NCBI GenBank assembly: GCA_963753835.1
Contig: CAVWDP010000002.1
Location: forward strand, 611,578-675,577
DNA length: 64,000 bases
Source of the DNA: an uncultured Bacteroidales bacterium
GTDB taxonomy: Bacteria > Bacteroidota > Bacteroidia > Bacteroidales > B18-G4
Direction of reading: 5' to 3'
The translations under genes were made by a program, and so were the position numbers. Positions 3,743-53,432 of this stretch are shown one piece after another. The notes under the pieces are model-generated. The model had not been told where the DNA came from, ran no database searches, and saw nothing but the letters and a program-made list of their open reading frames with translations. Within the stretch, counting starts at the first letter, position 1; every line of letters begins with the position of its first letter.

Positions 3743-4704
3743 ATGAAAAAATTTCACACCCTGCTTATTGCATTAATGGTTGCTGGTTCTGCAATGACTC
3801 AAACAGATAACCCTTACGAATCTTGCCTGCCTGATGGCATCACATTTGGATCACAAAGCCAGATTGACAGTTTTCCAATTAACTACCCGAATTGTACAGA
3901 GATTGAAGGGGGAGTACTAATAGGTGGATCAGTTTGGGGAAACGACATTACTAACCTGAATGGTTTAAATAATATAACATCAATTGGTGGACTCACCTTA
4001 AGCTTCTTACAAATAACAGACTTAAATGGATTAGAGAACCTTTTATCAATAAATGGCAGTTTCATAATCTTCGCAACCCCAAACCTGATGAGTTTAGAAG
4101 GGCTGGAGAATTTAACGAATATTGGGGGAAGTTTGCAGATCGGGTTCGAAAACTTTGAATCCAGCCTTACAAATTTAGATGCATTAAGTAAATTTAACAT
4201 CTATAAATGGCTCTCTCACCATAATCGGAAATCCCAATATATCTACACTTAGTGGTTTAGGTAATATTGATGCAGCTTCAATCGCTGGCATATCTATCAA
4301 AGCAGAATGATTCATTGGCAACCTGTGAAGTCCAAGAGCATCTGTGATTATCTCGTCTTCTTCAACCGGTACTGTTGAAATAATCGATAATGCCACCGGC
4401 TGCGATAGTCAGCAGGAAGTAGAAGATGCCTGTGAATCATTTTCAATTGAAGAATCTAGCACCCTGCAAGATATTATCATCTACCCCAACCCAACCCAAT
4501 CATCAATAACAATTGAACTCCCAACCCAACCATCAAAAAACACATCCCTGACCATTTCCAACACCAATGGCCAGCAACTCATCACCCAACCCATAACGGA
4601 ACCTCAAACCAGAAATCGACATTAGTTCACTACCAGTCGGCATATACATCGTCAAGGTCTGGAACGACAAAGATGTGATGGTTCAGAAGGTGATCAAGCA
4701 ATGA
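3743..4704 (+). pseudogene. Leucine-rich-repeat surface protein with T9SS C-terminal domain, multiply frameshifted
   Basis: Signal peptide, then LRR units (NLNGLNNITSIGG, LNGLENLLSINGS, LEGLENLTNIGGS). The repeat continues in another frame (NLTSINGSLTIIGNPNISTLSGLGNID). SLATCEVQ, ICDYL and SSSTGTVEIIDNATGC lie in different frames. The CTD (IIIYPNPTQSSITIELP ... VGIYIVKVWNDKDVMVQKVIKQ) is split again. At least five frame changes. Confidence 0.85.
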
Positions 4705-4747
4705 TATAACCACCAAATTGATTCGAAAACCAAAAACCAAACTTTTA

Positions 4748-6355
4748 ATGAACCGCCTTTATATTTTTCTAATTTTCGTTTTGACTTCTGTAATGGCTAC
4801 ATCTCAACCTTTGCCAGAGTGGACAACAAAAGTTGAAACTAACTTTAATAGTGCTGAGATAGGTGACAAACCAAAATTAAAATTTGATAATGAAGGTTAT
4901 TTAATACTCGGCGGCAATATCTATAATTCGTCATCAAGTAAAGATTATCTTATCATCAAGTATGACCTCAATGGCAATGAGGTTTGGCAAAAGACATACA
5001 ATGGTGGAAATAATTTAGATGATGAACTTCGTGATTATTTCATCGACTCACAAAATAACATTTATGTTACAGGGTTAAGTCATATTGACTCATTAAACAC
5101 CAAAATTGTCACGATAAAATATAGTTCTTCCGGAAGTTTGCTTTGGGAAAATAGTTACGAAGGAATAGCAGACAGAGGCGACTGGGGTAATTCAGTAACT
5201 ATTGATATGGATTTCAATACTTATATAACAGGTGCAACTGTGATTGACACACTTTTAGGTAAGAGATTAATAGTTTTAAAAATAGACTCAAATGGTAATC
5301 AGTTATGGAGTGAAATCTACAGTTCACAGGATAATGGAAGATATGAAGGGATGATAATAAAGATAATCAACAACAAAGTACAGGTATTAGGCAAATATCA
5401 CATTCCAAATTCTGGATTTGGGTGTATTATATTAAAACAAAATTTGTCTGGTTCTATTATTGACTCATATGAAGTTCCTGCTAGTGGCTGGATTACTTAT
5501 TATCTGGATAATTTCGGCAATTCATATGTCGGTGGTTGGGGTAGTTACGAAATAACAAAAGTCAGCAGTAATGGCGTAGTTGTGTTTACAGATTCAATAC
5601 AAACCAACCTACCTTCAAATGTATCTGGAGATGAAGTTAGGGCAATCACCGTTGATACAAGTCAAAATGTATATATAAGCGGACGGCATTATGGTGATGA
5701 CTATGGTGGGGCAAACTATTCAAATGCTGATATCCTGACAGTAAAATATGATTCTTTAGGTAACAAACTTTGGGAAAGCAGATATGAGTATCTTGGAAAT
5801 AATGCGGCAGATATTGCAAATTCCATAACAATTGATGATTATTTAAATGTTTACGTTGGAGGGGAAAGTCAAGCAACAATTGCTGGTGAAGACTACGACT
5901 ATATTGTGGTGAAATATAATTCTGAAGGTCAGGAAATCGGCACAATAAGATATGATGATGAAAATGGAGAGGATGATGTTATAACATCAATTATAGTAAC
6001 TGATACAAATCAAATTTTTGTGACGGGGTTAACCTTAAACAACGATCAGAGTACAAATACAACAACACAGAAATATTCTGAATTTGTGATAACTGATATA
6101 ATAGAGCCCAGCCATAAAAATACTATACCTATATACCCCAACCCTTCATCCACCCATATAACCATAGAATTACCCACTACACCACAAAAGAACACCTCCC
6201 TGACCATTTATAACCTCAACGGTCAACAACTCATCACACAAGCTATAACGGAACCACAGACGGTGGTTGATGTGTCAGGGTTGCCAAAAGGGGTCTACTT
6301 TGTAAAGGTAATGAATGACAAAAATGTTATTGTTCAGAAGGTGATTAAAGAATAA
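4748..6355 (+). CDS. SBBP-type beta-propeller repeat protein with T9SS C-terminal sorting domain
   Basis: Signal peptide MNRLYIFLIFVLTSVMATSQ. Recurring NIYVTG/NVYISG/NVYVGG propeller-like units. C-terminus IYPNPSSTHITIELP...GVYFVKVMNDKNVIVQKVIKE. The track ORF starts 30 nt upstream at 4718. Confidence 0.8.
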   Translation: MNRLYIFLIFVLTSVMATSQPLPEWTTKVETNFNSAEIGDKPKLKFDNEGYLILGGNIYNSSSSKDYLIIKYDLNGNEVWQKTYNGGNNLDDELRDYFIDSQNNIYVTGLSHIDSLNTKIVTIKYSSSGSLLWENSYEGIADRGDWGNSVTIDMDFNTYITGATVIDTLLGKRLIVLKIDSNGNQLWSEIYSSQDNGRYEGMIIKIINNKVQVLGKYHIPNSGFGCIILKQNLSGSIIDSYEVPASGWITYYLDNFGNSYVGGWGSYEITKVSSNGVVVFTDSIQTNLPSNVSGDEVRAITVDTSQNVYISGRHYGDDYGGANYSNADILTVKYDSLGNKLWESRYEYLGNNAADIANSITIDDYLNVYVGGESQATIAGEDYDYIVVKYNSEGQEIGTIRYDDENGEDDVITSIIVTDTNQIFVTGLTLNNDQSTNTTTQKYSEFVITDIIEPSHKNTIPIYPNPSSTHITIELPTTPQKNTSLTIYNLNGQQLITQAITEPQTVVDVSGLPKGVYFVKVMNDKNVIVQKVIKE

Positions 6356-6358
6356 TTT

Positions 6359-6410
6359 GGCTGCAACTTCCGGCAAGAAGGGGAGCCTTCTTGGACTTTT
6401 TTATTTGAGC
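6359..6410 (+). terminator. Terminator-like hairpin that belongs to a dispersed 45-nt repeat
   Basis: gctgcaacttccggCAAGAAGGggagCCTTCTTGgactttttt. A second copy lies at 11145-11188. Confidence 0.6.
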
Positions 6411-6504: not shown

Positions 6505-6990
6505 AATCCTGCCCCCGCTACAACAAAGTCCTGATGCATGCATCAGGACTTTTCTTTTTATGCTGAGCATTAAGCTTGCTTGAGTGCGAAAGCATGAAAA
6601 GAAAAGGTCTTTACGAGCGTAGCGAGTTAATCCGGGACTCTGTGAGGGAGAGACTTTGAGATTGGGGGATGGGGAGATAGGGTGAAGTGGGGAGCGAAGC
6701 ATTCAGTCTTATGGTCTTTATTATCCCCCCCATTCAGGATCATCCCGAGTACTCGGGATAACCTGGACAAATCCTAAGCTCTAAATACCCAAACTCGAAA
6801 CAAATTCAAAGGTTTCAAATCCAAAATACAAAACTTAAGTACGGCTTAATTTATCTAAGTGATTCTGCTCGTCGGGAGATGAGCAACCTGTACACACGCA
6901 TCAGAAGATGCTTGCGAGCGGAGGTAAAAAACACCCCCCCAAACATTTTATGGTAGAAATTTTTAATAAAAACACCGTTGTCGTCCCCCT
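6505..6990 (+). repeat. Direct repeat copy 2, beginning with a 16-nt tRNA-fMet 3' fragment
   Basis: aatcctgcccccgcta plus the terminator palindrome and downstream sequence, duplicated from 2890 onward. No upstream tRNA body is present. Confidence 0.9.
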
Positions 6991-7363: not shown

Positions 7364-8069
7364 TTGAACAGCTTTATGAAAAAGATCTTGTCAGTAGTTA
7401 TTGGAATATTTATTCTCGGATCGGTCTTTTCCCAGGATTCATTTTTATCAACGATCAGAAAATTCAGTATCGGAGTTGGTTTTCATACGGATATCTGGCT
7501 GGGGAATCCTCCGGGCATGTTTCCAAGGACAATAAACCAGGGTGTCCAGGTAAATGGCATGTATAACTACCGCATAAAGGAAAGTGCGGTAAACATTGCA
7601 GGTGGAGTTGGTCTAGGAACCCATAATCTCTACACGAATACATATATTCCGGATATCAAGGCCGACTCAATCTCTTTCATAAAGATACCTGACAATATAC
7701 CGTATAAAAAAAGCAAACTCTCTCTGGCCTATATTGATATCCCTTTGGAATTCAGGATCAAAACGCGTAAGCATTTTCAGATAGCTTTCGGATTTAAGGT
7801 CGGTTTCAACATTAATGCTCATGTTAAGTACAAAGGAAATTGCTTCGTTGGTTGGCTCCAGTGGATCTGCTTTCGTAAATGGAGCAATTGTCAAGGAAAA
7901 GGAAAAGGATGTTCGCCAGATAGAAACCATCCGCTATGGTGCTACATTCCGGATAGGATATAAATGGATCAACCTAACGGCATACTATCAGATTTCAAAA
8001 GTATTTAAGGTTGACAGGGGTCCGGCACTGTACCCGATCTCATTTGGCATAGCGGTTATCCCTTATTAA
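7364..8069 (+). pseudogene. Outer-membrane beta-barrel (porin-like) protein, one frameshift near 7830-7850
   Basis: Signal peptide followed by alternating beta-strand pattern (FGFKVGFNINAHVKYKG). It continues in frame 0 as ...LVGSSGSAFVNGAIVKEKEKDVRQIETIRYGATFRIGYKWINLTAYYQISKVF, ending in an aromatic residue. Confidence 0.7.
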
Positions 8070-8660: not shown

Positions 8661-9382
8661 ATGAAAAAATTATTTTATTTATTAGGATTGATTATATCCT
8701 TGGCAGTTGTGATTGCAGCTTGTGAGAAAACTACATTAGATGACAATACAGAATCATCTATGAAAGGTAACAATGGCTGTGCAAAGATTCAGAGCGGAGA
8801 CATTGTTTATAGTAGCTCACATTATTTAGCAGGAACAGCAATTACAACAGGATTTGATGATTATGGATACAATTATCAAGCACTTAAGTTCCAGGGCTCC
8901 TATTTTAATTCATATGCAGGAGGAAATGGATTGCCACCCTGGGATGGAAACGATGCCGCTTATCTAGCAGTTAATCCAAGTGCTGCAACTCATTGGGCTT
9001 GGCCATACAGAGATGTTAATCTCATGATGAAATGGAATACAGCATGGATTTCAAAAACTGATTGCGATGGGGATGGAGCCTTAGATCGTCACTGGGGTTT
9101 TGATAGTTATATAGGATCAGGAGCTTGGTTGACGAATCACCAGTCGGGTACTTATGAAGTTGATGGTGAGACTTGTAATTGGAATTACTTTGTGAAAATT
9201 ATCGCTGTTCCTGCTGATGCAACGTCATCAGAAGGATCTGGTATAATGCTGATGGTACCGAGATCGGCCCTGTGATTTGGGGCGAATTTGCTATAATTCA
9301 AGAAGTAGAGAATGATCCATGTGCTGGAATTCATGGATTACAATATGTAAGCCCAGATCACGCAGGTTTAGGCGGATGGTAA
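8661..9382 (+). pseudogene. Lipoprotein of unknown function, one frameshift near 9235
   Basis: Lipobox LAVVIAAC. After ...ATSSEG the reading continues in another frame as WYNADGTEIGPVIWGEFAIIQEVENDPCAGIHGLQYVSPDHAGLGGW, followed by a hairpin and T-run at 9406-9432. Confidence 0.6.
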
Positions 9383-22746: not shown

Positions 22747-23250
22747 ATGAAAAAAACTGCCTTCTTTCTCCTGGTCATTTTCATGATCACATCAGGTGTG
22801 CTTATCCAGTTATCATGCAAGAAAAAATCCGATACAGTTGTCAATCCTATTTATATGCAGGTTGAGCTCCCACGCCATGAATTAAAGCACGATCTGTATT
22901 ATAAGATCCACCTGTCTGAGCGGTCGATTGAACTTTCTTTCAGTGAAACACTGGATGCTGCAACAGTAAATGGGAACATCAGGCTTATGGATCAGTATGG
23001 TGAGCTTTCTGATTATGAGCTGCAGCAATCGGGAAACCAGGTATTGATCATGTTTAATCCTGAGTTTGAATTGAAGCACGGATGGAAATATGATATAGAG
23101 ATTGATCCCGGTTTGAAGTCTGAATCCGGTCTGGCTGTATCACCTGATAAGAGTATTGAGTGCCGTACCGGCATCGACTATGCCATGCAATATACATGCT
23201 GCACAGAATGGAGGCGAGGGAAACCGAAATGCCATCGCCATTATTTCTGA
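22747..23250 (+). CDS. Lipoprotein with an Ig-like (SbsA-type) domain. Possibly the N-terminal part of the next gene.
   Basis: Lipobox IQLSC. Overlaps the next ORF by about 70-95 nt in a different frame. Confidence 0.5.
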   Translation: MKKTAFFLLVIFMITSGVLIQLSCKKKSDTVVNPIYMQVELPRHELKHDLYYKIHLSERSIELSFSETLDAATVNGNIRLMDQYGELSDYELQQSGNQVLIMFNPEFELKHGWKYDIEIDPGLKSESGLAVSPDKSIECRTGIDYAMQYTCCTEWRRGKPKCHRHYF

Positions 23251-24403
23251 TATACATATGGGAGATCCTCGTGCTTATACACACGACTATTGCTGGTTTG
23301 GAAAGAACCAGACAGCCCTGGAAGCATTCCTGGATTATGTACGTGCCGACAGCAGTAAAGTAAAGCAGCTGGTGATACTGGGAGATCTCTTCGATGAATG
23401 GCTGGTACCTTATACTATCTCTCCCTTTGATCCCACCCTTAGCATTAGCAGTACCAGTGATTTCTTTCATGCTGTGGCAGATGCAACGGTCAATAAAAAT
23501 ATATTTGACAAGCTCAGGGAGATTGTTGATCACGACAGTGTAGAGTTGATCTATGTGCCCGGAAACCATGATATGCTGGGTACACAGGATATCCTGAATG
23601 AGATCATTCCAAACATAAGCTGGAAAGGAGGCCCGGCCGGCCTCGGTGAATATTCACCTTTCCCTGAAATGATCTTTGAACATGGCCATCGCTATGATTT
23701 TTTTAATTGTCCGCAACCGCTGGTTAATCCTGATCACAAGCTTCCACCGGGCTACTTTATATCCAGGTTATATGCCAAGGGGATGATGGATGCTAAAACT
23801 GCCGACAAATCCATTGAGCAGACCTCCGGCTCTTTTGAATTTAAAGCTGCCTGGGACATAGCATATCTGTATACCATTGCCCACTTCTGGATGGTTCTGC
23901 CGGATGCTTATGCTAAAAATATCCTGATGGGAGGAATAGATCATTATACCGAACCGATGTCTTTTCACGGAACTAAAGAAATGTATGCCGCGAGTATCGA
24001 AGACTACTGGGCAGCCACACAAGCACAAAACCAGGTTCCGGTGCCTATTGCCTGTTGTTTCCATGCCATATGGAATGGCCATAGTGATCTGTATACTGCC
24101 GCAGAAACACAATATCTGAAACAACCCCCTTCTCCTAAGGCATATAAGATCGTTGCCTTTGGTCATACCCATGAGGCCATGCTAGAGGTATATCCAAAAG
24201 GAAGCGGCTATACCAGTATTTATGCAAATTCCGGTACATGGATCGATGCCGACCAGACAAAAAATGATGTACGCACATATTTGATGATCACTCCCAAAGC
24301 ATGGACCGGCTCCGAAATCGATGTGGTAGGTTTGTATCAGTACAATAAGGATACCGACAATGTTTATCGTCATCACAAACTAGACGAGGAGTCGATTAAA
24401 TAA
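23180..24403 (+). CDS. Calcineurin-like metallophosphoesterase
   Basis: Motifs ISDIHMGD, GDLFDEW, VPGNHD and GHTHE. The start is uncertain (ATG 23180 or a fusion with 22747-23250 through a frameshift near 23196-23212). Confidence 0.7.
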   Translation: MPCNIHAAQNGGEGNRNAIAIISDIHMGDPRAYTHDYCWFGKNQTALEAFLDYVRADSSKVKQLVILGDLFDEWLVPYTISPFDPTLSISSTSDFFHAVADATVNKNIFDKLREIVDHDSVELIYVPGNHDMLGTQDILNEIIPNISWKGGPAGLGEYSPFPEMIFEHGHRYDFFNCPQPLVNPDHKLPPGYFISRLYAKGMMDAKTADKSIEQTSGSFEFKAAWDIAYLYTIAHFWMVLPDAYAKNILMGGIDHYTEPMSFHGTKEMYAASIEDYWAATQAQNQVPVPIACCFHAIWNGHSDLYTAAETQYLKQPPSPKAYKIVAFGHTHEAMLEVYPKGSGYTSIYANSGTWIDADQTKNDVRTYLMITPKAWTGSEIDVVGLYQYNKDTDNVYRHHKLDEESIK

Positions 24404-25883: not shown

Positions 25884-26808
25884 ATGAGAGGTTTTTTATA
25901 TAAAATATTAAAGTTTTTTCTGGTACTGATTGTCGTACTTTCAGGGATCTTGACTATTACATTCATGTTGAGCTACAAGAATGCTGGTAGTCTTATCCTG
26001 GATAAGGATATACATACGCTCATTTGTGGAGATTCACACACTAAGACTGCATTAAACGATAGTATCATTCCAAATTCATTAAACATTGCACACTCCTCAG
26101 AGCATTATTTGTATACATATAATGTTTTGAGGGTACTTCTTGAAAATAATCCACAAATTTCAACAGTGATCCTGGGATTATCCTATCATAATATGTCTGC
26201 ATTTTATGATGATAATATTTTCGATGAAGACCGGACCCAATATATGTATCCGCGCTATTTCACAATTCTCGACAAGGAGTCGATGAAGATGATCCTGACG
26301 AATAATTTCCAGGGTGTGCTTGGGGACTTTAAAAACATATATCATGGGCTGTATCGGCACATTGATGCAAAAGAGCTTGAGGATTACAGTTTCATAGGAT
26401 GGTTTTACCGAAGTGAAAGAATGAATAAGAATGACAGCACCGTTGGCAGGGCAATTCAAGATCATTACTATCAAGCTGATGGCTCATTGCAGTCATTCTC
26501 TGCTCTTCAGCTCGTTTACCTGAAAGAGATCATTGAACTGTGCCACTCAAAGAATCTGGATTTGATACTTATAAACTGTCCGCTAAGCGAAGAATACCTG
26601 GCAGGAGTACCACAGCAATTCATTGACAATTACAATGGACTGATGAAAGATTACGGGCAGATATATGCTTGATTGCCATAATTACGAAGTTCCCGAAAAT
26701 TGCTGGGGTGACGGTGATCACCTGAATATCAAGGGATCAAAAATATTCAGTACCCACCTGGCAAATCAATGGGTGACTAATCGAAGATATTTCTTGCTCC
26801 GCTATTAG
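25884..26808 (+). pseudogene. Membrane-anchored SGNH/GDSL-like partner of the MBOAT gene, frameshift near 26660
   Basis: N-terminal TM, then LICGDSHT (block I GDS). After the stop at 26672 the +1 frame continues as LDCHNYEVPENCWGDGDHLNIKGSKIFSTHLANQW, which carries a DxxH-type block V. Confidence 0.6.
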
Positions 26809-26953
26809 CGGAGCTTATTATCAGCCCATCTTTTTTGCAGATAGGGCACTCAGTGTTCTTCTGGGTGGAAATGTAACCGCAACGGTCACATTTAAAGTAC
26901 CGGAAGTACTGAGTCCTCTTGGAGGTGTTCGGTATTTTAAGCCCGAGTTTCAT
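26777..26953 (-). CDS. Small zinc-ribbon protein (58 aa)
   Basis: CDRC...CPIC four-Cys ribbon. Its own minus-strand -7 box TAATTTTG lies at 26978-26985. Confidence 0.45.
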   Translation of the reverse strand: MKLGLKIPNTSKRTQYFRYFKCDRCGYISTQKNTECPICKKDGLIISSANSGARNIFD

Positions 26954-27140: not shown

Positions 27141-27511
27141 TTAGATTATTTCGATGGGATATACAAGTACAGACTTGGAACGTGTATTGCTCTCCCCGGT
27201 ATAGGTATCCGTGGCTTTAGTATAACCAGGAAAGTCGGTCTTCGCCGGTATTATTGTGATAGGTAAATGTGGGGCTATGCTCACTGGAGGTAGACCCATT
27301 ATGGAAGGTCCACTCAAATTTATCGCTATACTGGGAAGTATTATGAAAGGTGACCATAACAGGGGCCGGGCCATCATTGCCGGTAAAATAAAAACTGGCA
27401 ACCGGAAGTGTCAATGTGCCAACATTCTTCTGATCTGCCTCATCAGCTTTGGTGCAGGCATCCTGGACCATAATGATGACATGCCTAAAAGAAGATAAAG
27501 TTGTTCTTCAT
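27141..27511 (-). pseudogene. Small PKD-domain lipoprotein, two frameshifts
   Basis: MKNNFIFF then a stop at a T-run. Continues as ...IIMVQDAC TKADE...FYFTGNDGPAPVMVTFHNTSQYSDKFEWTFHNGSTSSEHSPTFTYHN (PKD), then shifts again to ...PGYTKATDTYTGESNTRSKSVLVYPIEII. Confidence 0.6.
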
Positions 27512-27699: not shown

Positions 27700-28764
27700 A
27701 TGAAACGAGTCACTGCTGATCATTATTATACTACTTACTTCCCTGGGATCTATGCCCAGGCTCCTAAGTACAGCAACGAGTTTCTTGCAGTGGGTGTGGG
27801 TGCCCGCTCGCTTGGGATGGCCAATGCCCAAACGGGTATTACCAATGATGTGACTTCCGCTTACTGGAACCCTGCAGGATTGGTAAACCAGAGTATCTGA
27901 TATGCAGATCGGCCTGATGCACAACGAATATTTTGCAGGGATTGCCAAATATGACTATGCCGGTTTTTCGATGAAGCTGGATACAGCTTCTGCCATCGGG
28001 ATCTCTGTAATCAGAATGGGAATCGATGACATCCCCAACACCATCAACCTTTACGATAACCAGGGGAATATTAACTACAACAGGATCACCAGGTTCTCTG
28101 CGGCCGATTATGCCATGATGTTCACCTATGCCAGGAAAAGCAAGGTTAAAGGCTTAAGCTACGGTGGGAATGTGAAGATAATTTACCGACAGATCGGAAG
28201 CTTTGCAAAAGCATATGGTTTTGGCCTGGATGCCGGAATCCAATACAGGACAGGTAAGTGGCGCTTCGGCGCTATGGCGATGGATATTACCAGCACTTTT
28301 AATGCCTGGACATTTGAAGTTTCGGAAGATATGCAGGATGTATTTGCGGCTACGGGCAATGATATACCTGAAAACTCATTGGAAGTTACTTTACCACGAT
28401 TGAACCTGGGTGCCGGGCGACATTTCAGGTTATCAGACAACTTTTCTGCATTGCTTGCCCTCGATCTCGATATGACCTTTGATGGGAAGAGAAATACACT
28501 CATTAAATCAAATGTTGTCAGTATCGATCCCAAGCTGGGAGTTGAATTTGGCTTTAAAGACATCGTATATATCCGGGGTGGGATCAGAAATATTCAGGAA
28601 GAAACCGATTTTGGGGAAAGAAAAACTATACAATTGAACCCAATTTCGGAGTAGGGGTAAGGATCAAGAAGATGATCTCCATCGACTACGCCCTCACCAA
28701 TATCGGTGACTCATATTTCTATTCCAATGTTTTCTCACTTCGCATCGACCTGAACCGTAAATAG
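27700..28764 (+). pseudogene. PorV/PorQ-family T9SS outer-membrane protein, at least two frameshifts
   Basis: GARSLGMANAQTGITNDVTSAYWNPAGL is a PorV/PorQ-like N-terminal motif. Frame changes lie near 27895 and in the gaaagaaaaac run (28613-28626). The C-terminal strand SNVFSLRIDLNRK is in the original frame. Confidence 0.7.
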
Positions 28765-29697: not shown

Positions 29698-30490
29698 ATG
29701 AGAAAATTTACATATATCATATTGCTTCTTTTTACTTTCCATGTTTCCTTTGGACAAACAAGCCTGGATACAGCCCTTAACTTTTCGGTCAAGGATATCC
29801 ATGGGGTCAACATTGAGCTATTTCCTATCCTTGATGAAGGTAAATTGGTGGTGATCGACTTTTTTTCTACAACCTGCGGCCCATGTGCATTATATGCCCC
29901 TGAGGTGCAGGCATCTTACGAAGATTTTGGGGAAAATAACGGGAATGTTTTCTTTCTAAACATTGATCAGGGTGATGACAATGAAGGGGTGGCATTTTTT
30001 GATTCTATTCATGGAATTACAAGCCCTTCTGTCAGCGGCAGCCAGGGCGGAGGCTACCCGGTTCATGAATTGTTTATGATCCAGTCTACACCTACAGTCA
30101 TCCTCATCGCTCCTGACCGGAGCATTCTGGAACAATATATCTGGAAACCTACACAATCAAACCTGAATGCTGCCATCCTCGCAGCCGGTGGCATTATGGT
30201 TGGCATTGATGATGAGCCTGTCTTACATAAAAACAGCTTGCTTATATACCCAAACCCGGCCACAGGCCGAATTAATGTTCAGCTGGAGGTGATAGGCGCC
30301 TTCGCAATACCACCTTGAGGTTTATAACCTTCTTGGTTCAAGGGTTTTTGAGTCTGCACAACAGCAGCTCACGGCTGGTATACAGGAGCTTCATGCTGAT
30401 CTTAATAGCCTGCCTGGAGGAACGTATTTCGTAAGGCTTTTCAGGAATGGGAAGCATGAAAACCTCAGCAGGCTGATTTTACTCGATTAA
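29698..30490 (+). pseudogene. Thioredoxin-fold (TlpA/redoxin-like, CGPC) protein with T9SS C-terminal domain, frameshift at 30296-30316
   Basis: Signal peptide, FFSTTCGPCALYAP, then the CTD start LLIYPNPATGRINVQLEV. The rest of the CTD (LEVYNLLGSRVFES...LPGGTYFVRLFRNGKHENLSRLILLD) is in another frame. Confidence 0.7.
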
Positions 30491-35592: not shown

Positions 35593-35698
35593 TTAAGTAT
35601 TAAAAACATCAGGCTGCCTATGATGGCGCTAAGTACGAGGGAATGAAATTTCAAGTAAATCTGCGTATTATCTTTTTCCTGCTTGATGGCTGTGGGGC

Positions 35699-38122
35699 TT
35701 GCTCATGCCCATACAAGCCCAGGTTACAAAGATCATGGGCAGGATAACAAATGCTGAAACGGGAGAACCCATACCTTTTGTTAATGTTTTTTTTGAAGGA
35801 ACAAACATTGGGGCAACATCTGATTTTGAAGGTGATTTTGCCATTGAAACATTTTCACCCGGTGATTCCCTTACTGCATCTTTTGTAGGCTATGTGTCCC
35901 AGAGTATGCGCATTACTCCAAAGATCTTTCAGCAAGTTGACTTTGCATTGGATCCCGACAAGATCTTACTGGAAGAGGTGGTCATCCTTCCCGGCGAAAA
36001 TCCTGCGGAGGTGCTGCTTAGGAAAGTGATTGAAAACAAAGACAAAAATAATAAAAAGGAATTTGAGGCTTACGAATTCGAGGTGTATACCAAGGTGCAG
36101 TTCGATGCCAACAATATAACTGAGAAATTGCAGGAGCGGAAACTGATCAAGCCCTTTGAATTCATTTTTGACTACATGGATACTTCCACCCTGAATGGAA
36201 AGGCATACCTGCCTATATTTCTTTCAGAGACCATGTCGAGCATCTATTATAGGAAACAACCGAAAGAAAGATTGGAAATCATCGTGGCTTCTAAGCTTTC
36301 CGGAGTTGAAAATGAAAGCATTACACAGTTTTTGGGAGACCTCAACACCAGTGTAAATATCTATGATAATTATGTTACCATCTTTCAAAAGAATTTCATT
36401 TCACCTATAGCTAACTCCGGACTTGGCTATTACCGTTACTATCTTGTTGACAGTATGTATATTGATAATCAATGGTGTTATCACATGATGTTTAAACCAC
36501 GCCGGAAACAGGAGCTCACCTTTTCAGGTACTTTCTGGGTGCACGACACCACTTTTGCTATCAAAAGCGTTGAGATGGAAATGGCGGGGGATATGAATCT
36601 GAACTTTGTGAGTGCCGGAATGGTCAGACAGGAATATAATCTGATTGATGGGCAATACTGGATGTTGACCAAAGATTACCTGATGGGGGATTTCAATTTT
36701 ACCAAGAAATCACGAACCATAGGTGTATATGGGCACAGGACTACTTCCTCCAGGAATTTTGTTTTAAATCAACCCAGGGAGGATCAATTTTATAAGAGTC
36801 CTGTGGCTGTTGTGGTGGAGGAGGATGCCATGGATAGGGACGATGCATACTGGGAGATTGCACGGCACGATAGCCTTACCAGCAGGGAAAATGGTATTTA
36901 TGAGATGATCGACTCCATAAAAAGCATTCCGTTGTTTGAAACATACATGGACCTTGGGTATATGCTGATCAATGGTTATTATATCTGGGGTAATTTCGAG
37001 CTTGGCCCTTATTATAAGTTGATCAGTTTTAATGATATCGAGGGGACACGGTTCCGTTTTGGAGGAAGAACAAGCAATCAGTTCAGCACAAAGCTGATGC
37101 TCGAGGGGCACGCGGCCTATGGAACAAAAGATAAGAGGATGAAGTATGGGCTTGGGTTTCTGTATATGTTCGACAAAAACCCACGCAGGGCACTCAGTGG
37201 TTCCTATTTGTTCGATATGGTGCAACTGGGGCAAAGCCAGGATGCATTTAGCCAGGAGAACTTTTTTTCAGTGTTTTTCAGGCGAAATCCAGCCAATAAG
37301 CTATCCATGCTGGAGCGTTATCAGCTGGCCTATGAACATGAATGGGTACAGGGCTTTTCTACTACCTTTAGCTTTGCTCACCGCAAGCTATTCCCCGTTG
37401 GGGATAACACCTTCGTGGTTTACCCCGAACCTGATCAGCCAACGGTGGAGGATAATATTATCTCTGCTGAAGCTGGACTGAAGATTCGCTGGGCACATAA
37501 AGAGCGCTATATTCTTGGAGAATTTACAAGGATCACCATCGGGACCAAATATCCTATTTTTGAAGTGAATTACGCTTATGGTGTCCCGGGAATATTTGGG
37601 AGCGAATATGAATATCAAAGGTTGCAGTTGCAAATAAGGCAGTGGTTTAATGTGTTCTCTATCGGCTGGTCGAAATATATTTTTGAAACAGGCAAGATCT
37701 GGGGCACATTACCGTATCCACTGTTAAAGCTTCAGCCGGCCAATGAAACTTTCCTTTTCGATGAATTTGCCTATAATCTGACGAACTATTATGAATTTAT
37801 TCACGATGAGTATATCAGCTTGTATTATACCCACCATTTCGACGGATTATTTCTCAACCATATTCCCCTTTTGCGCAAATTGAAATGGAGAACTGTGATC
37901 CATGGCAGAGCATTGCTTGGATCACTCACTGATGCCAATAAAGCGTATTCAGACTTTCCCGGTGACCAGGTCGAATCGGCAAAACCATATTATGAAGCAG
38001 GAGCAGGAATTGAGAATATCTTTAAGTTTATCAGGGTTGATGCCATCTGGCGATTGAGCCACCGTGATACACAACCGAATAGAAATTTCGGGGTATTTAT
38101 TTCAGCAGCATTTTCTTTTTAG
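35699..38122 (+). CDS. CarboxypepD_reg-like plus DUF5686-type outer-membrane protein
   Basis: N-terminal [34 protein letters not shown]. The large C-terminal region ends in an aromatic residue (AAFSF). The likely signal peptide is encoded out of frame upstream (see findings). Confidence 0.7.
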
Positions 38123-39326: not shown

Positions 39327-41634
39327 TTAAAATTCATAAATTAATTCCCCCATAATAAAACGACCTGGAGGCAATTTGCCTTTTCGGTCAATGGTCATGT
39401 CATTAAAGATATTCTGTACGGTCAGGGACAATCCGATCCTTTGTGGAAGCTTTTTACTTAATTTTATGTTGAACAGATGATGTGGGTCGATATATTGGGT
39501 ATTTTCATCATCATACCATTCTTTCCCTATAAATTGCCAGTCGAACAGCACATTCACCACTTTGTTTTGCCAGTTGATGGCCGCACCGGCCATGTTGATC
39601 GGAACCTCTATCAAGGATTTCCCTGTTAGGTCTTTATCTTCATTTACCGGGTCTTCGAATTCAAGAATACACGAATGGTTAGTGCTATAGTTTGCACTGA
39701 AAACAAGGTTTGAAAGTATTTCCCAATTGAGTGTGATTTCAGCTCCAATGATCTCTATTTCGGTTATGTTCTGTCGCTGAAGAACAGGCTTCAGGTCTGC
39801 TCCACCAGTTTCAACAGAGTCGCCGGTAGATACAAAATATTGAAAGTCATGACCTCTTGAATAATATACAGATGGCTCGATGGAGATCTTGTCGATGATC
39901 ATCCAGGTCAGCCCCAGCTCATAGTTGACAAGGCGCTCCGGTTTCAGTTCAGGGTTGGCTAGTTTAAATCCTTTGGAAATCTTGCCTGACTTAACAAGGT
40001 CATCGACCTTAGGTGGCATAAAACCGGACGTTATTGAAGCATAGATCCCTAAATCCTGGCGAATCTGATATTGCAAGGCCAACTTTGGGCTAAACTGAAC
40101 CCAGGAATGCTTACCAAACATGGCTGAAACATCTTTGATGAACCCGGTGTTATTTGTAGGATTATAAACGTCCTGGAAGCCATCATAAAACAGGGCATAG
40201 TCAAACCTTAATCCTGCAATGACAGCTAATTTTTTGAAAATCAGGAATTCATCCTGTATAAATATACCAACAAAAAGCAGGTTTCCACCATACTGTACTT
40301 CATCCGTAGAAGTACGGTAAACCTGCCTGGCATCCAGATCCCCCAATTTAACTTCAAAACCGCTCGTAAACAGGTGATGGCGGAAGAAGACACGGGAAAG
40401 GTTGAGCCAGATCCCATAATCGTTTTTTGTTGAATTTGTCTCCGATAACTTGTATTTTCTTGAACTGCTGAAACTTTCATTCTGATTTTTGAAGTCTTCT
40501 ACCTGATAGTATAGCTTTGTATTCAGCTTGAATCTTCCAGGTTGTCCGGTAAAGCTTGAAAGAAGTATTTGACTGTTGTATTGGTCATATGATCCTTCTT
40601 CCTCATAAACCTGGGTACCTGTGCCAAATTTTCCATTATAAAGCCGATAGCTGATGTCAAGCGATGTTACAGTATCGAAGCGGTAACCGGCCAATAATCC
40701 CGCACTGTATTCAAACAGATCAGCTTTGGAGTCCATATGTATCACGGGTTTCTTCAGGTTCCAGGATATAGCCATCCCCTTTTCGGAGAAATCCGTTCAT
40801 TTTCCAGTAAAAACCTGATTCTTTATGCCGGCCAGCTCCGCCAAGATCAAGTGCCCCCCCATAAGTACCTAAAGACCCTCCAAAGGCGCTGACATTACCC
40901 TCAATGGGTTTGATGGGTTTTTTAGTCGTGATATTTATAACGCCTGCCATGGCATTGTTACCGTATATGGCAGAGCTGGGGCCTTTAACTATTTCAATGT
41001 TGTCGATCTGATTTGGTTCAATGAAATTCCAATTCACGGAGCCACCAGCGGCCTTATTCATGGGTACACCATCGAGCAGGATAAGTGTCCTGGAACTGCC
41101 CGGCAACCCACGCATGGTGACACTGGCACTTTTAGAAAAAATTCCCCAGGGCCTGTGTACATAAACATTGGCAATACCCCTGAGGAGATCATCGGTATTC
41201 AGGGCCGGGATCTGCTCAACCAGCTGCTTCGAGATCAGGCCAACCCTGGCCGGCATCAAAGAAAGTTTTCTCCTGGTAAGTGTTGCTGTGATGGTAACAG
41301 GATCGATCTCGACGACCACCGGCCGTACCATGAAGCTTAGTTCAGCGGTTTCAGTATGCAGGTCAATTTGTGTGTTGTAATCAAGATAGCCAATATGCGA
41401 GATAGATAATGTATATGTTCCTGAAGGAAGTTCAGGAAAAGTGAAAAGTCCTTTGCTATCAGTTACGGTACCAAGCTGCAGCTCCCCGATGATCACATGA
41501 GCATCGGTTAACGGACTTTTACTATAGGCATCCATCACCCTTCCTTTCAGCAAAAGGTCTCCGTCTGCCTTTGTGCTTTGCTGAAAAATGAGGAGGGATA
41601 TCCCAAATAATAAAATAGTCAGGAACCGACTCAT
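39327..41634 (-). pseudogene. TonB-dependent receptor (CarboxypepD_reg + plug + barrel), one frameshift near 40733-40745
   Basis: The N-terminal ORF (40720-41634) has the signal, LKGRVMD..., and a plug (TMRGLPGSSRTLILLDGVPMN). The barrel ORF (39327-40775) ends ...GRFIMGELIYEF. The two overlap in different frames. Confidence 0.8.
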
Positions 41635-42532: not shown

Positions 42533-43117
42533 TTATTGTTCGCTTGATTTAATAAAAGAGTTCTTAATGCTATATAAACCATAACCTAGCATGCCACCCA
42601 GCATTCCGAAAAGGAAGAAACTCAGGATGGTGTACGCAACACCAAATTTTACAAATGCCATATAAGGATGCCCTGATACCAGGTTCACCAGGAGGCGACT
42701 CAGGGGAATACACATATAAGCCATCCCTGATGCTATAGAGATTACAAATAATAGGCGAGATCTTTCCTTCCCAGCTAAATAAAACAGGTCAAGCACGATA
42801 CCAGGGAGCAAATAACTGAATGAATGTAAAACGGTTCCCTGTCCGATACCTGGGATCAGGAGCATGATACCAACACCAAGCATAGCCATCAAGCCTGCAT
42901 ACCTGATATCAGATGACAGGCGAACGAGAGAGATGATAGCCATGAACTCAAGTCCGTGGTGTCCGGGAATATTCAAAGGGATCCTTAAACTAAAATGCAA
43001 GTATGTTGCCAGTGCGCCTCCCATGACTAAAAGGAACAATTCCAGAACCAGTGGAATACTCCGGCTAAGAGATTGACCGGATGATGTCTTTATGGGTAAG
43101 TTTCCATTCATATTCAT
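42533..43117 (-). CDS. Hypothetical polytopic membrane protein (His-containing loop PGHHGLEF)
   Basis: 194 aa with five or six hydrophobic segments. No confident family. Confidence 0.5.
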   Translation of the reverse strand: MNMNGNLPIKTSSGQSLSRSIPLVLELFLLVMGGALATYLHFSLRIPLNIPGHHGLEFMAIISLVRLSSDIRYAGLMAMLGVGIMLLIPGIGQGTVLHSFSYLLPGIVLDLFYLAGKERSRLLFVISIASGMAYMCIPLSRLLVNLVSGHPYMAFVKFGVAYTILSFFLFGMLGGMLGYGLYSIKNSFIKSSEQ

Positions 43118-43182
43118 CGTGTATTTCAGTTTTTTGAGTGATTAAGATAGCTTTATGATCTTTTAATATTGGTCGTACCCAT

Positions 43183-43827
43183 TCATGTATTGATATCCTT
43201 AGCATCTTCCAGGGGATGTTCTCCATCCAATGAGCTAATATTATCCAGGGCCAGTACTTCTTTTATTTCGCGTATGCTGAATACGCCGGCTTTCATATCG
43301 CGTAGTTCTTTGATCCCTCTTCGCCAGATAAACCTTCCATCGTTTCCACTTGCCCGCAGGCCAACAGCCGCCAGGGCGCCAATGATCCCTTCATGATTGC
43401 CGGTAAATCCCTTCAAATAAATATTTGTTTGCTTTGCCAACGCCGTGGCATTATACATATTCAGGACTTTGATCTTGGCTGCCAGTCCCCAATCGATAAT
43501 TTGTTCGTTTACCCCGTCAAATGAGGCAACACAGAGTCCTGCATCAGAACCTGGGGCGCTATATGCAGTTAGATGATCAGCACACAAATCCGTCACAGCA
43601 TTTACATTACTGCACATGAGGTTGATGCAGGCTGAACTGTTCTGAGAAGTGTACCTTATGGCCGGGTCAACAAATAGCTGGTGTCTCGTGATTCCGCTCA
43701 CCTTGCCCATATTTGTTGCTTCCAGTTTGTGGGCGAGTTGCCGGGCCAGGAACCCGGTACCCCGGCTGTTGGCATTATCAGTGTCATCGATGCCTATCAA
43801 CAGATTTATGTAGTTGTCATGATCCAT
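43183..43827 (-). CDS. Stand-alone TiaS N-terminal (DUF1743 / TCKD-like) domain protein
   Basis: 214 aa from ATG 43827. LIGIDDTDNANSRGTGFLA and GIIGALAAVG resemble, as I recall them, the GIDDTDS...GMCTTYLA and GLIGALAAVG motifs of archaeal tRNA-Ile2 agmatidine synthetase TiaS. Confidence 0.55.
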   Translation of the reverse strand: MDHDNYINLLIGIDDTDNANSRGTGFLARQLAHKLEATNMGKVSGITRHQLFVDPAIRYTSQNSSACINLMCSNVNAVTDLCADHLTAYSAPGSDAGLCVASFDGVNEQIIDWGLAAKIKVLNMYNATALAKQTNIYLKGFTGNHEGIIGALAAVGLRASGNDGRFIWRRGIKELRDMKAGVFSIREIKEVLALDNISSLDGEHPLEDAKDINT

Positions 43828-44221: not shown

Positions 44222-44241
44222 TTTGAATACAATCTTGATGT

Positions 44242-51716: not shown

Positions 51717-51947
51717 CTTTAAAATTATTTGCTTTAAATGTAGATAGAACTTGATCCGGGCAACAGGGATTTAGGCCCCATTTTTTAACACTATACTGTT
51801 AATATTAACTGATTCCGGGCTGTTTTATTATACGTATGAACAGACTTTCCTGCCTTGGATTTTGTTTGTTGTAAATCAGTTCTTAATAAAGTTATTTATA
51901 TATGTTTCTAAATAATAGATATATGCTTTGCAGTCTTAAAATATTTA

Positions 51948-51955
51948 TACTTTTG
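51948..51955 (+). promoter_or_regulatory. -7 box TACTTTTG upstream of nhaD
   Basis: TAnnTTTG 27 nt upstream of the ATG at 51983. Confidence 0.45.
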
Positions 51956-51982
51956 CAGCCATAAATCTTAAAACTTTCTTCT

Positions 51983-53432
51983 ATGTTTTTATTAATGGTT
52001 ATCATCTTTATCCTGGGATACACAGCAATTGCGCTGGAGCACCCTATTAAAGTGGATAAAGCAGCATCAGCCTTGCTTACAGGAACCATCCTTTGGGGAT
52101 TGTATGCATTGAATTCGACGGGAATTTTAGGCCTGGATCTAAGCCCATCGTGGCAGGCAGTAAAAGATGTCAGTCATGATGTGATGGCATTTATTTACCC
52201 GGCGATCGATCATGTCAGGTTCGACAGACTCTGGGAAGGCCCTGCAGAACTCTCACATCATATTTCTGAATTTGTGGTTCTTGACCTTGAGCATCACCTT
52301 GTTGAAATCTCTCAAATTCTTTTCTTTTTGTTGGGAGCCATGACCATTGTTGAAACAGTTGACCAGCACCAGGGATTCAAGATCATTACCGACCGGATCA
52401 GAGCGACCAATAAGGTCAGGCTGCTCTGGATCCTCAGCTTCCTGACTTTCTTCATGTCAGCTACACTGGATAATCTGACCACAACTATTGTGATGGTTGC
52501 CTTGCTGAGAAAGCTTATTGATGATAAGAAAACGAGGTGGTTTTTTGCCAGTATGGTGGTTCTGGCAGCTAATGCCGGAGGTGCATGGTCGCCCATCGGG
52601 GATGTGACAACGATCATGCTATGGATCGGTGGTCAGGTAACCACAGCCAATATTATCATGTATGTCTTCATTCCAAGTATGGTAACCATGATTGTACCCT
52701 TGCTTATAGTAACCTTTACTGTGAAAGGTGATGTACAACGGCCTGTGCTGGAAAATGGGGAACATCATGAATTTACGAGCGCCTTTGAGCGGAGGTTATT
52801 ACTGATCATGGGAGTTTCAGCATTACTTTTTGTTCCTATTTTTAAAACCGTTACCCATCTTCCACCCTATATGGGGATGCTCTTTGGCCTCGGTGTGATC
52901 TGGTTGGTGACTGAGATTATGCACAGGAACAAACCATTGGAAGACAGAAGAAAGCTTACTGTTATTGGCATCCTGAAGAAAAGTGGATGTCCCTACAATA
53001 TTCTTCTTCCTCGGTATTCTTACGGCAGTTGCTGCATTGCAGTCGATGGGCCACCTTGATGTACTGGCGAAATACCTCGATGAAAACCTTCACAATATAT
53101 ATGCGATCAACCTGATCATTGGTGTCCTTTCAGCAATTGTCGACAATGTGCCACTGGTTGCCGGAGCTATGGGAATGTATCCATTGGCTGAGGCTGGTTC
53201 AGTAGGATATTTAGCTGACTTTGTAGTAGATGGGAAGTTCTGGCAGTTCCTGGCTTATTGTGCCGGAACAGGTGGTAGTATCCTGATCATTGGTTCTGCT
53301 GCAGGTGTTGCAGCCATGGGACTGGAAAAGATCGATTTTATTTGGTATATGAAAAGGATTTCACTCCTTGCATTGGCAGGATATATTGCAGGTGCTGCAG
53401 TATACTATTTCCAGATGCAGATCATTGGATAG
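51983..53432 (+). pseudogene. nhaD: NhaD-type Na+/H+ antiporter, one frameshift in the gaaaag run near 52975-52985
   Basis: ORF 1 ends ...RRKLTVIGILKK then garbled sequence. ORF 2 resumes as DVPTIFFFLGILTAVAALQSMGHL in another frame. Together they give about 480 aa with a typical NhaD/ArsB-fold layout. Confidence 0.75.

What the first reader, a model, noticed from the sequence alone, without database searches (positions are those of the whole stretch)
3743..53432. Frameshift interruptions are confined to envelope genes: at least 9 exported or membrane genes are broken and none of about 22 cytoplasmic genes
By my reading, nine genes each need one or more frame changes to restore an obviously continuous protein:
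- LRR-CTD, 3743-4704 (at least 5 shifts)
- OM beta-barrel, 7364-8069
- lipoprotein, 8661-9382
- SGNH partner, 25884-26808
- PKD lipoprotein, 27141-27511 (2 shifts)
- PorV/PorQ-like, 27700-28764 (at least 2 shifts)
- thioredoxin-CTD, 29698-30490
- TBDR, 39327-41634
- NhaD, 51983-53432

Two more are ambiguous (22747-24403, and the 35643-35720 signal peptide).

My tally of intact genes: about 22 cytoplasmic genes, including the long ones (recQ, aor, der), plus about 17 envelope genes. The intact envelope set includes the 5.2-kb giant gene and the 3.8-kb porU.

Some junctions sit in short homopolymers (gaaaag at about 52980, gaaagaaaaac at about 28620, a T-run at about 27490). Others do not. Random indel error should hit long cytoplasmic genes too. 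The bias therefore suggests one of three things: real pseudogenisation of surface functions, slipped-strand phase variation, or consensus artefacts at strain-variable surface loci in a mixed-population assembly.
Basis: seen in the sequence. Interest (0 to 1): 0.6.

Follow-up and report, generated by a model that had tools for sequence, protein, structure and literature searches.

The report
Frameshifts from likely long-read assembly errors
Thirteen genes in this stretch of an uncultured Bacteroidales genome are split by 23 single-base insertions or deletions that look like assembly errors rather than biology, and they are not truly confined to envelope genes.

Summary
The broken genes are real features of the sequence. 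All nine listed genes and both "ambiguous" ones need frame changes to match orthologues that are intact in every relative examined.

The headline claim fails. A frameshift-aware alignment census found 23 single-base events in 13 genes. Two of those genes have no signal peptide or membrane segment: a 49-aa zinc-ribbon protein (26808-26953) and a 253-aa TiaS_TCKD-like protein (43068-43827).

The bias is not robust:
- Envelope genes make up 62% of the coding bases.
- Sixteen of the 23 events sit in two patches (4.19-4.61 kb and 26.66-28.63 kb).
- Counted as 8-12 independent clusters, the envelope excess gives p = 0.11-0.36.

The lesions carry a technical signature:
- They are indels only, with no in-frame stop codon in any reconstructed gene.
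- None lies in any of the 241 coding homopolymers of 5 or more bases.
- Insertions and deletions alternate within genes.
- One patch crosses four genes.
- There is no sequence decay. The PorV/PorQ gene has 4 shifts, yet fewer lineage-specific substitutions than its intact sister, with the same third-codon-position bias.

The public record is a 1.47-Mb contig of an uncultured lineage. Most likely these are residual long-read consensus errors. Read mapping is needed to prove it. Interest is low.

The parts
3743..4704 (+). LRR (Recep_L-type) protein with a T9SS C-terminal sorting domain. It has five +1 shifts (extra bases) at about 4188, 4302, 4335, 4357 and 4611. This is patch 1.
   Evidence: Frameshift-aware alignment to full-length homologues P0318, P0304 and P0270. 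Pfam Por_Secre_tail is split across frames. No in-frame stop.
7376..8069 (+). Outer-membrane beta-barrel protein (OMP_b-brl_2). One +1 shift at about 7844-7862.
   Evidence: Homologues of 220-235 aa lose the match to the window ORF after about residue 161. Alignment; Pfam.
8661..9382 (+). Lipoprotein of unknown family. One -1 shift at about 9237.
   Evidence: Single-frame full-length homologues occur in 60+ metagenome contigs. tblastn frames 3 then 2. Alignment to L058.
22747..24403 (+). One +1 shift at 23176-23191.
   Evidence: Orthologues in L001 and L005 span both frames. Pfam.
25884..26780 (+). Membrane-anchored partner of the MBOAT gene (the 'SGNH partner'). +1 shift at 26664 and a probable -1 at 26764. 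Patch 2 starts here.
   Evidence: Alignment to the 299-aa orthologue in L056 and to L002.
26808..26953 (-). 49-aa zinc-ribbon protein with no signal peptide, so not an envelope gene. One -1 shift at 26821 replaces the last 5 residues.
   Evidence: 46 of 49 residues are identical to L056 once the shift is allowed. Relatives end ...KKDGL(S/H)N(K/T)LR. DNA alignment shows one missing base. Pfam rubredoxin-like hit.
27150..27511 (-). Small PKD-like lipoprotein. Shifts: +1 at 27490, -1 at 27234, -1 at 27217.
27700..28764 (+). PorV/PorQ-family outer-membrane protein. Shifts: +1 at 27709, -1 at 27746 (this pair scrambles the signal peptide), +1 at 27895, -1 at about 28616-28631. Patch 2 ends here.
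   Evidence: DNA alignment with L055 (94% aa identity) and L056 shows these four single bases as the only length differences in 1065 nt. Protein alignment. The public record calls a 250-aa fragment identical to the window ORF (P0062).
29698..30490 (+). Thioredoxin-fold protein with a T9SS sorting domain. One +1 shift at about 30298.
35643..38122 (+). DUF5686/CarboxypepD_reg outer-membrane protein. One -1 shift inside the signal peptide at about 35685-35700.
   Evidence: The 825-aa orthologues start about 20 residues upstream of the in-frame ORF. An ATG plus signal-peptide-like start lies in another frame.
39327..41634 (-). TonB-dependent receptor. One +1 shift at 40737, between the plug and the barrel.
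   Evidence: Pfam split. The 768-aa orthologue in L057. DNA alignment.
43068..43827 (-). 253-aa TiaS_TCKD-like protein with no signal peptide or TM segment, so not an envelope gene. One +1 shift at about 43209 puts the conserved last 47 residues out of frame.
   Evidence: tblastn frames -2 then -3. Alignment. Pfam.
51983..53432 (+). NhaD/CitMHS-type inner-membrane transporter. One +1 shift at 52979 (A3 to A4).
   Evidence: Pfam profile positions 4-232 then 244-322 in two ORFs. The 482-aa orthologue is 91% identical.

Best explanation
The frame breaks are residual single-base consensus errors in a long-read, metagenome-derived assembly. They are not mutations carried by the organism.

Most errors sit in two short stretches of poor consensus: 4.19-4.61 kb and 26.66-28.63 kb. 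About seven more are scattered at roughly one per 8 kb. The patches may reflect a local coverage drop or mixed haplotypes; this cannot be told without reads.

Envelope genes fill 62% of the coding DNA here and both poor stretches fall on them. Two hits in cytoplasmic genes were overlooked because they lie near the C-terminus. Together these made the errors look envelope-specific.

Shown: the events, their positions and types, intact orthologues, the absence of decay, and the weak statistics. Inferred: the sequencing technology and the cause of the patches.
For: 1. SPECTRUM. There are 23 events of exactly one base (15 gains, 8 losses). No reconstructed gene body has an in-frame stop or a larger deletion.

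2. CONTEXT.
- No event lies in a run of 5 or more bases, although coding DNA holds 241 such runs.
- Most events are in no run at all, for example GAG[T]CAC, CAG[A]GTA, CTC[G]TCT and GG[-]GG.
- By contrast, spontaneous bacterial indels occur at about one-fifth the rate of substitutions and mainly in simple repeats (PMC5854121).

3. NO DECAY.
- The repaired PorV/PorQ protein is 86.7% identical to outgroup P0004. Its intact sister P0001 is 85.6% identical to the same outgroup.
- The repaired protein has only 1 private change at an invariant site.
- At the DNA level the window-specific substitutions are 7/3/31 by codon position. The intact sister has 6/4/41.

4. GEOMETRY.
- Gains and losses alternate within genes: PorV +,-,+,- and the MBOAT partner +,-.
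- Patch 2 runs across four adjacent genes, including a cytoplasmic one, and starts 780 nt into the first gene.

5. ORTHOLOGUES. All are in one frame in seven syntenic relatives. These include a 1.42-Mb contig with a Flye-style name.

6. PROVENANCE.
- The window's own proteins P0062 and P0121 sit on a 1,474,148-bp contig in NCBI/ENA.
- The lineage is otherwise known only from MAGs.
- Seven 690-nt tandem units, two of them 99% identical, are resolved. This points to long reads.
- Two otherwise identical repeat copies differ by a poly-C run of 9 versus 7.

7. LITERATURE.
- Indel errors in long-read assemblies depend on coverage (PMC9262707).
- A large Nanopore-only MAG catalogue reports sequencing-error effects in lower-coverage MAGs (PMC12313526).
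- Collapsing nearby allelic variants introduces spurious indels (PMC8445201).

8. BIAS. At cluster level the envelope excess gives p = 0.11-0.36. Homopolymer density and GC content do not differ between the two gene classes.
Against: - No reads, quality values or coverage could be examined, and the source record could not be fetched. The artefact is therefore inferred, not shown.
- No assembly of the same species exists in the searched collections to act as an independent check. The best non-self identities are 94% for PorV and 96% for AOR.
- The gene-level Fisher test is still nominally significant (p = 0.022). Both cytoplasmic hits are C-terminal, which is what purifying selection on real mutations would also leave.
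- Classic Nanopore errors favour homopolymers, and these events do not. The platform is unknown.
- The syntenic relative, which appears to be a comparable assembly, has none of these breaks.
Confidence: 0.6

Rival explanations
1. The breaks are technical, but the envelope bias is real. Co-assembled strains differ most at surface-exposed genes. Collapsing their haplotypes into one consensus misaligns reads around nearby variants and writes spurious single-base indels there.
For: - Indels outside homopolymers, and paired gains and losses a few tens of bases apart, are what mis-registered alignment of divergent alleles produces (PMC8445201).
- Some insertions can be read as both alleles of a SNP kept side by side. 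For example, GAG[T]CA could merge GCA and GTA.
- Non-synonymous microdiversity concentrates in cell-surface functions in natural populations (PMC9426551).
- The gene-level test gives p = 0.022.
- Patch 1 lies in a 3.6-kb segment bracketed by identical repeats, which could be strain-variable.
Against: - The bias disappears at cluster level.
- Two cytoplasmic genes are hit.
- The broken genes are no more divergent from the relative than the intact ones. Identities are 0.63-0.91 for broken genes and 0.59-0.96 for intact genes.
- PorV/PorQ, the worst-hit conserved gene, is a core gene at 86-94% identity.
- Heterogeneity cannot be measured without reads.
Confidence: 0.22
2. The mutations are real. 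On this reading, surface and transport genes are being inactivated, or loss-of-function alleles are segregating at high frequency. Possible causes are relaxed selection in a restricted niche or selection by phages that use these proteins as receptors.
For: - The public record carries the same breaks (P0062).
- Eleven of the 13 hit genes are envelope genes, including typical phage-receptor classes (TBDR, OM barrels, PorV).
- The two cytoplasmic hits only alter C-terminal tails.
- Essential cytoplasmic genes are untouched.
Against: - There are 23 indels with 0 nonsense codons, 0 larger deletions and 0 IS insertions.
- Mutation-accumulation data give indels at about one-fifth the rate of substitutions (PMC5854121). 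From that ratio, my own estimate is that the 4 indels in the 1065-nt PorV gene should come with roughly 20 extra, mostly non-synonymous substitutions. The window branch instead has fewer changes than the intact sister, with the same third-position bias.
- The indels avoid runs, where natural indels concentrate.
- Up to 5 hits fall in one gene, while T9SS partners (PorU, PorP, GldJ) and TonB-ExbBD are intact.
- Patch 2 ignores gene boundaries.
Confidence: 0.13
3. The breaks reflect slipped-strand phase variation (contingency loci) or programmed ribosomal frameshifting.
For: A few junctions touch short runs: A4 at 52979, A4 at 27490, and G and A runs near 28620.
Against: - No tract of 5 or more bases and no repeat unit lies at any junction.
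- About 4 of 23 events lie near a run of 4 or more bases. By my rough estimate from the run density, about 16% of positions lie that close to such a run, so this is no enrichment.
- There is no shared slippery motif, and both shift directions occur.
- Orthologues are encoded in one frame, so no recoding site is conserved.
Confidence: 0.01

Closest known systems
Residual indel errors in long-read (Nanopore or PacBio) genome and MAG assemblies, which split ORFs. This is what IDEEL-type tests and frameshift correctors such as proovframe address.
   Same: Single-base gains and losses split otherwise conserved genes. The density is about 1 per 3 kb overall. The record is a Mb-scale contig of an uncultured lineage. 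Orthologues are intact elsewhere and the affected genes show no sequence decay.
   Different: The events avoid homopolymers, which is atypical of classic Nanopore error. They are strongly patchy. The platform, coverage and polishing history are unknown to me.
Spurious frameshifts from collapsing divergent alleles into one consensus (described for a diploid trypanosome assembly, PMC8445201).
   Same: Indels arise outside repeats. Nearby gain/loss pairs occur, and the effect concentrates at particular loci.
   Different: Here the 'alleles' would be co-occurring strains in a metagenome. No read-level evidence of heterogeneity is available.
Pseudogene accumulation in recently host-restricted or niche-restricted bacteria.
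   Same: Many genes are interrupted by frameshifts, and surface and transport functions are prominent among them.
   Different: There are no nonsense mutations, deletions or IS disruptions. There is no rise in non-synonymous change. Several hits fall in single, otherwise pristine genes. Essential partners of the same machinery are intact.
Phase-variable contingency loci (homopolymer or SSR slippage in surface genes).
   Same: Surface genes are affected by frameshifts.
   Different: No repeat tract lies at any junction. There are several shifts per gene and no positional preference for the 5' end.

Membership tests
Long-read consensus/assembly indel artefact | The lesions are small indels only, without the substitutions, stops and deletions that accompany real gene decay. 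| tested here: met
   23 one-base events and 0 in-frame stops in 13 repaired genes. PorV branch length and codon-position pattern are normal.
Long-read consensus/assembly indel artefact | The same genes are uninterrupted in close relatives and independent assemblies. | tested here: met
   Seven syntenic relatives and dozens of database homologues are in one frame. No assembly of the same species was available.
Long-read consensus/assembly indel artefact | The indels are not supported by the majority of raw reads, or they coincide with low coverage or mixed haplotypes. | not testable with these tools
   No reads were available. The source contig (1,474,148 bp) could not be fetched.
Long-read consensus/assembly indel artefact | The assembly was made from long, error-prone reads. 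| tested here: inconclusive
   Supporting hints: a Mb-scale contig, resolved 7 x 690-nt repeats, and a poly-C 9-versus-7 difference between identical repeat copies. The platform is not stated anywhere I could reach.
Pseudogenes of reductive or relaxed evolution | A mixed lesion spectrum: nonsense, frameshift, deletion and IS insertion. | tested here: not met
   Only one-base indels were found.
Pseudogenes of reductive or relaxed evolution | Relaxed constraint, seen as excess non-synonymous change on the affected lineage. | tested here: not met
   PorV window-specific changes are 7/3/31 by codon position, against 6/4/41 in the intact sister. Only 1 private change falls at an invariant site. This was tested on PorV only.
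Phase-variable contingency locus | A homopolymer or short tandem repeat tract lies at the switch point. | tested here: not met
   The longest run at any junction is 4 bases. All 241 coding runs of 5 or more bases are in frame.
Programmed ribosomal frameshift | A conserved slippery site, with the two-frame arrangement conserved in orthologues. | tested here: not met
   Orthologues are single-frame. There is no common motif, and both +1 and -1 shifts occur.
Envelope-specific effect (the finding's claim) | Frameshifts are absent from cytoplasmic genes and enriched in envelope genes beyond chance. | tested here: not met
   Two cytoplasmic genes are hit. Envelope genes are 62% of coding bp, and the cluster-level p is 0.11-0.36.

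The most novel reading that the evidence does not exclude
The indels are real and very recent. On this reading, a natural population of an uncultured marine or sediment Bacteroidales lineage carries high-frequency loss-of-function alleles in a block of surface genes, including a PorV/PorQ protein, T9SS cargo proteins, a TonB-dependent receptor and lipoproteins. Phage pressure or a shift to a restricted niche could be the cause. An unusual mutational process that makes non-repeat single-base indels would also be needed.
Probability: 0.1. Interest if true: 0.5.

Novelty: not a real feature. Interest (0 to 1): 0.1.

Why it matters
If these are artefacts, the value is practical.
- The public record under-reports at least 13 proteins. 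It annotates, for example, a 250-aa PorV fragment.
- Any pseudogene or "surface-function loss" inference drawn from this genome would be wrong.
- Apparent functional bias in broken genes can arise from local gene content, clustered errors and detection bias. C-terminal shifts are easy to miss.

If the mutations were real, they would show rapid, targeted loss of surface functions in a wild population. The evidence here points away from that.

Tried and rejected
- FETCHING THE WINDOW'S OWN CONTIG. Exact-protein look-up failed three times (DeoC, P0062, P0121). The genome is nonetheless in the protein collection. No genome-wide census was therefore possible.
- SAME-SPECIES ASSEMBLY. None was found. 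The best non-self hits are 94% (PorV) and 96% (AOR).
- METAGENOME SCAN WITH THE LIPOPROTEIN. It confirmed that gene's shift but gave no synteny for the 0-12 kb region.
- THIF AS A BROKEN CYTOPLASMIC GENE. Rejected. It is a short ThiF followed by a separate ThiS ending in GG.
- OTHER ORF PAIRS SUSPECTED OF BEING BROKEN. 43841-44251 with 43183-43929, and 30519-31037 with 31015-31461, are separate genes in the relatives too.
- ORF 2794-3117. It is not a gene. It overlies tRNA-Met and a repeat.
- HOMOPOLYMER DENSITY OR GC CONTENT AS THE CAUSE OF THE BIAS. Rejected. Runs of 4 or more bases occur at 17.3 per kb in cytoplasmic genes and 14.6 per kb in envelope genes. GC is 0.443 versus 0.433.
- SHARED SEQUENCE OR METHYLATION MOTIF AT JUNCTIONS. 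None is evident.
- TYING THE RELATIVE'S ENA ANALYSIS ACCESSION TO THE NANOPORE-ONLY MICROFLORA DANICA CATALOGUE. No supplementary files are held.
- RFAM SCAN. It found only the tRNA.

Full report
WHAT THE WINDOW IS

The closest genomes in the species-representative collection are uncultured Bacteroidales/Bacteroidota MAGs. They share about 70-90% protein identity with the window and conserved gene order. The window's own proteins are in the public protein collection: a 250-aa PorV fragment (P0062) and the aldehyde:ferredoxin oxidoreductase (P0121). Both sit on a single contig of 1,474,148 bp from NCBI/ENA. That contig could not be fetched. A syntenic relative on a 1,424,674-bp contig could be fetched (ENA ERZ25039514, contig_23039). 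Loci L056 and L057 from it cover window positions 15-56 kb with every gene intact.

CHECKING THE OBSERVATION

I annotated all long ORFs with Pfam and NCBIfam. I then wrote a protein-to-DNA aligner that allows +1, -1 and +2 frame changes. With it I aligned intact orthologues to the window, gene by gene.

The events are:

| Gene | Events |
|---|---|
| LRR-CTD | five +1 shifts at about 4188, 4302, 4335, 4357, 4611 |
| OM beta-barrel | +1 at about 7844-7862 |
| Lipoprotein | -1 at about 9237 |
| Big_5-metallophosphoesterase lipoprotein | +1 at 23176-23191 |
| MBOAT partner | +1 at 26664, probably -1 at 26764 |
| PKD lipoprotein | +1 at 27490, -1 at 27234, -1 at 27217 |
| PorV/PorQ | +1 at 27709, -1 at 27746, +1 at 27895, -1 near 28616-28631 |
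| Thioredoxin-CTD | +1 near 30298 |
| DUF5686 signal peptide | -1 near 35685-35700 |
| TBDR | +1 at 40737 |
| NhaD | +1 at 52979 |

For PorV/PorQ, a DNA alignment with two intact relatives shows that these four single bases are the only length differences in 1065 nt. The first pair turns the signal peptide LLIIIILLTSLG into TADHYYTTYFPG.

The same census found shifts in two genes that have no signal peptide or membrane segment.
- The 49-aa zinc-ribbon gene at 26808-26953 (minus strand) lacks one base at 26821. The 36 bases before it are identical to the relative. The conserved ending ...KKDGLxNKLR is found in another frame.
- The 253-aa TiaS_TCKD-like gene at 43068-43827 (minus strand) has an extra base near 43209. 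This puts its last 47 residues, 65% identical to the relative, out of frame.

Both shifts are near the C-terminus, so the ORFs do not look broken to the eye. All other cytoplasmic genes align in one frame or cover their family profile end to end. These are Hsp15-like, Der, Era, serine dehydratase, IS200 transposase, both POR subunits, acyl-CoA dehydrogenase, a 154-aa protein, DeoC, RecQ, KpsF, CMD, LptB, the HTH regulator, AOR, ThiF, ThiS, FolC-like, AnmK and MurC-like. The apparent ThiF break is a separate ThiS gene.

IS THE ENVELOPE BIAS MORE THAN CHANCE?

I classed 28 genes as envelope (35.1 kb) and 23 as cytoplasmic (21.5 kb). Envelope genes are therefore 62% of the coding bases.
- By gene, 11 of 28 envelope versus 2 of 23 cytoplasmic genes are hit (Fisher p = 0.022).
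- By event, 21 of 23 fall in envelope genes (binomial p = 0.002). But the events are not independent.
- Five lie within 424 bp of the LRR-CTD gene. Eleven lie within 1968 bp spanning four adjacent genes (26664-28631).
- Merging events closer than 300-2000 bp leaves 8-12 clusters, 6-10 of them purely in envelope genes, with p = 0.11-0.36.
- Homopolymer density and GC content do not differ between the classes.

The strict claim is therefore false, and the residual enrichment is not robust for a single window.

WHAT THE LESIONS LOOK LIKE

All 23 events are one base long: 15 gains and 8 losses. No repaired gene contains an in-frame stop, a larger deletion or an insertion element.

No event lies in a run of 5 or more bases, although the coding DNA contains 241 such runs, 68 of them 6 bases or longer. 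Where the close relatives allow base-level placement, most events are outside any run. Examples are GAG[T]CAC, CAG[A]GTA, AAA[G]CAG, CTC[G]TCT, ACC[A]GAA, a base lost between GG and GG, and a base lost after CTG. Only NhaD (A3 to A4) and a few others touch short runs. About 4 of 23 events lie near a run of 4 or more bases. By my estimate, a random position would do so about 16% of the time.

This is the opposite of natural slippage. In mutation-accumulation lines, indels arise at about one-fifth the rate of substitutions and mostly in simple repeats. Their rates rise with run length (PMC5854121).

NO SIGN OF DECAY

The PorV/PorQ gene carries four shifts, so if they were real it would have been evolving neutrally.
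- Its repaired protein is 86.7% identical to outgroup P0004. The intact sister P0001 is 85.6% identical to the same outgroup.
- It has only one private change at a site invariant in 43 homologues, a typical value for the family.
- At the DNA level, with L056 as outgroup, window-specific substitutions fall 7/3/31 on codon positions 1/2/3. The intact sister L055 has 6/4/41.

The window's branch is shorter and just as strongly constrained. After repair, the other broken genes are as similar to the relative (0.63-0.91) as the intact ones (0.59-0.96). The relative-rate test itself was done only on PorV.

MOST LIKELY EXPLANATION

Several features together fit residual consensus errors in a long-read metagenome assembly:
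- an indel-only, repeat-independent spectrum;
- gains and losses alternating within genes;
- a dense patch that starts 780 nt into one gene and runs across three more, including a cytoplasmic one;
- intact orthologues in all seven syntenic relatives;
- full sequence constraint in the affected genes.

Provenance is compatible with this. The record is a Mb-scale contig of a lineage known only from MAGs. Seven 690-nt tandem units, two of them 99% identical, are resolved. Two otherwise identical repeat copies differ by a poly-C run of 9 versus 7.

The literature agrees on three points.
- Indel errors depend on coverage (PMC9262707).
- A Nanopore-only MAG catalogue reports error effects in lower-coverage MAGs (PMC12313526).
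- Collapsing nearby allelic variants into one consensus writes spurious indels (PMC8445201).

I could not establish the platform. I also could not tell whether the two patches come from a coverage dip or from mixed strains.

RIVAL EXPLANATIONS

- A technical origin with a true surface-gene bias, through strain microdiversity, remains possible (PMC9426551). The statistics do not require it, and two cytoplasmic hits count against a strict form.
- Real recent loss-of-function mutations cannot be excluded without reads. They would need 23 non-repeat indels with no accompanying substitutions or stops, and up to five hits in single pristine genes. I give this about 0.13.
- Phase variation and programmed frameshifting are contradicted directly. 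There are no tracts and no shared motif, both shift directions occur, and the orthologues are single-frame.

VERDICT

The broken genes are real in the record, but the "envelope-only" pattern is not. The breaks are most likely assembly errors. This is ordinary and matters mainly as a caution for annotation. The decisive test is to map reads at the 23 coordinates and to run a genome-wide, cluster-aware census.

Noticed in passing
window 2834-2906, 2890-3504 and 6505-6988: A tRNA-Met gene. Its last ~18 nt plus ~480-600 nt downstream are repeated 3.6 kb further on. The copies are 100% identical over 123 and 118 nt and 90% identical over 264 nt. They bracket the LRR-CTD and SBBP-CTD genes. Inside the identical block the copies differ by a 129-nt extra piece and by a poly-C run of 9 versus 7. 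This could be an island or duplication at a tRNA, or a strain-variable segment.
   Followed up: partly
window 16212-21494 (minus strand): A 1760-aa T9SS cargo protein with 14 DUF4397 domains. It is built from seven tandem 690-nt units, two of them 99% identical, yet it is a single uninterrupted ORF. The orthologue in the relative is shorter, at 1486 aa.
   Followed up: partly
window 11294-11746 (minus strand): An IS200/IS605-family Y1 transposase. It lies at the edge of a lower-GC stretch (0.36-0.39, about 4-12 kb) that has no synteny with the relatives.
   Followed up: no
window 44403-44897 (+): A nickel superoxide dismutase whose Sec-like hydrophobic leader ends directly before the His-Cys of the Ni-hook (…AAFA|HCEVPCGIY). 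This suggests an exported Ni-SOD.
   Followed up: no
window 58812-62642 and 62730-63998 (+): Full-length PorU (profile positions 1-1095 of 1095) is followed at once by a second PorU-like gene that runs off the window end. GldJ and PorP/SprF lie upstream.
   Followed up: no
window 38866-39326: A 460-nt non-coding stretch lies between lptB and the TonB-dependent receptor. In the relative the two genes are 6 nt apart. The stretch contains short direct repeats and a hairpin (ggtgactttttt…aaaaaagtcac) and has no Rfam match.
   Followed up: partly
window 32-86 and 53409-53463: A 55-nt inverted repeat pair, 76% complementary (GTTGTCATCCCGAGCGAAGCCGAGGGATC…). The arms are 53 kb apart. It is probably a dispersed REP-like element.
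   Followed up: no
window 41635-44221 (minus strand): A conserved cluster: HTH regulator, TiaS_TCKD-like protein, 4-TM membrane protein (its start overlaps the previous gene), lipoprotein and TonB-dependent receptor. It sits next to the tungsten-type aldehyde:ferredoxin oxidoreductase and ThiF/ThiS. Its function is unknown; it may be an uptake system.
   Followed up: no
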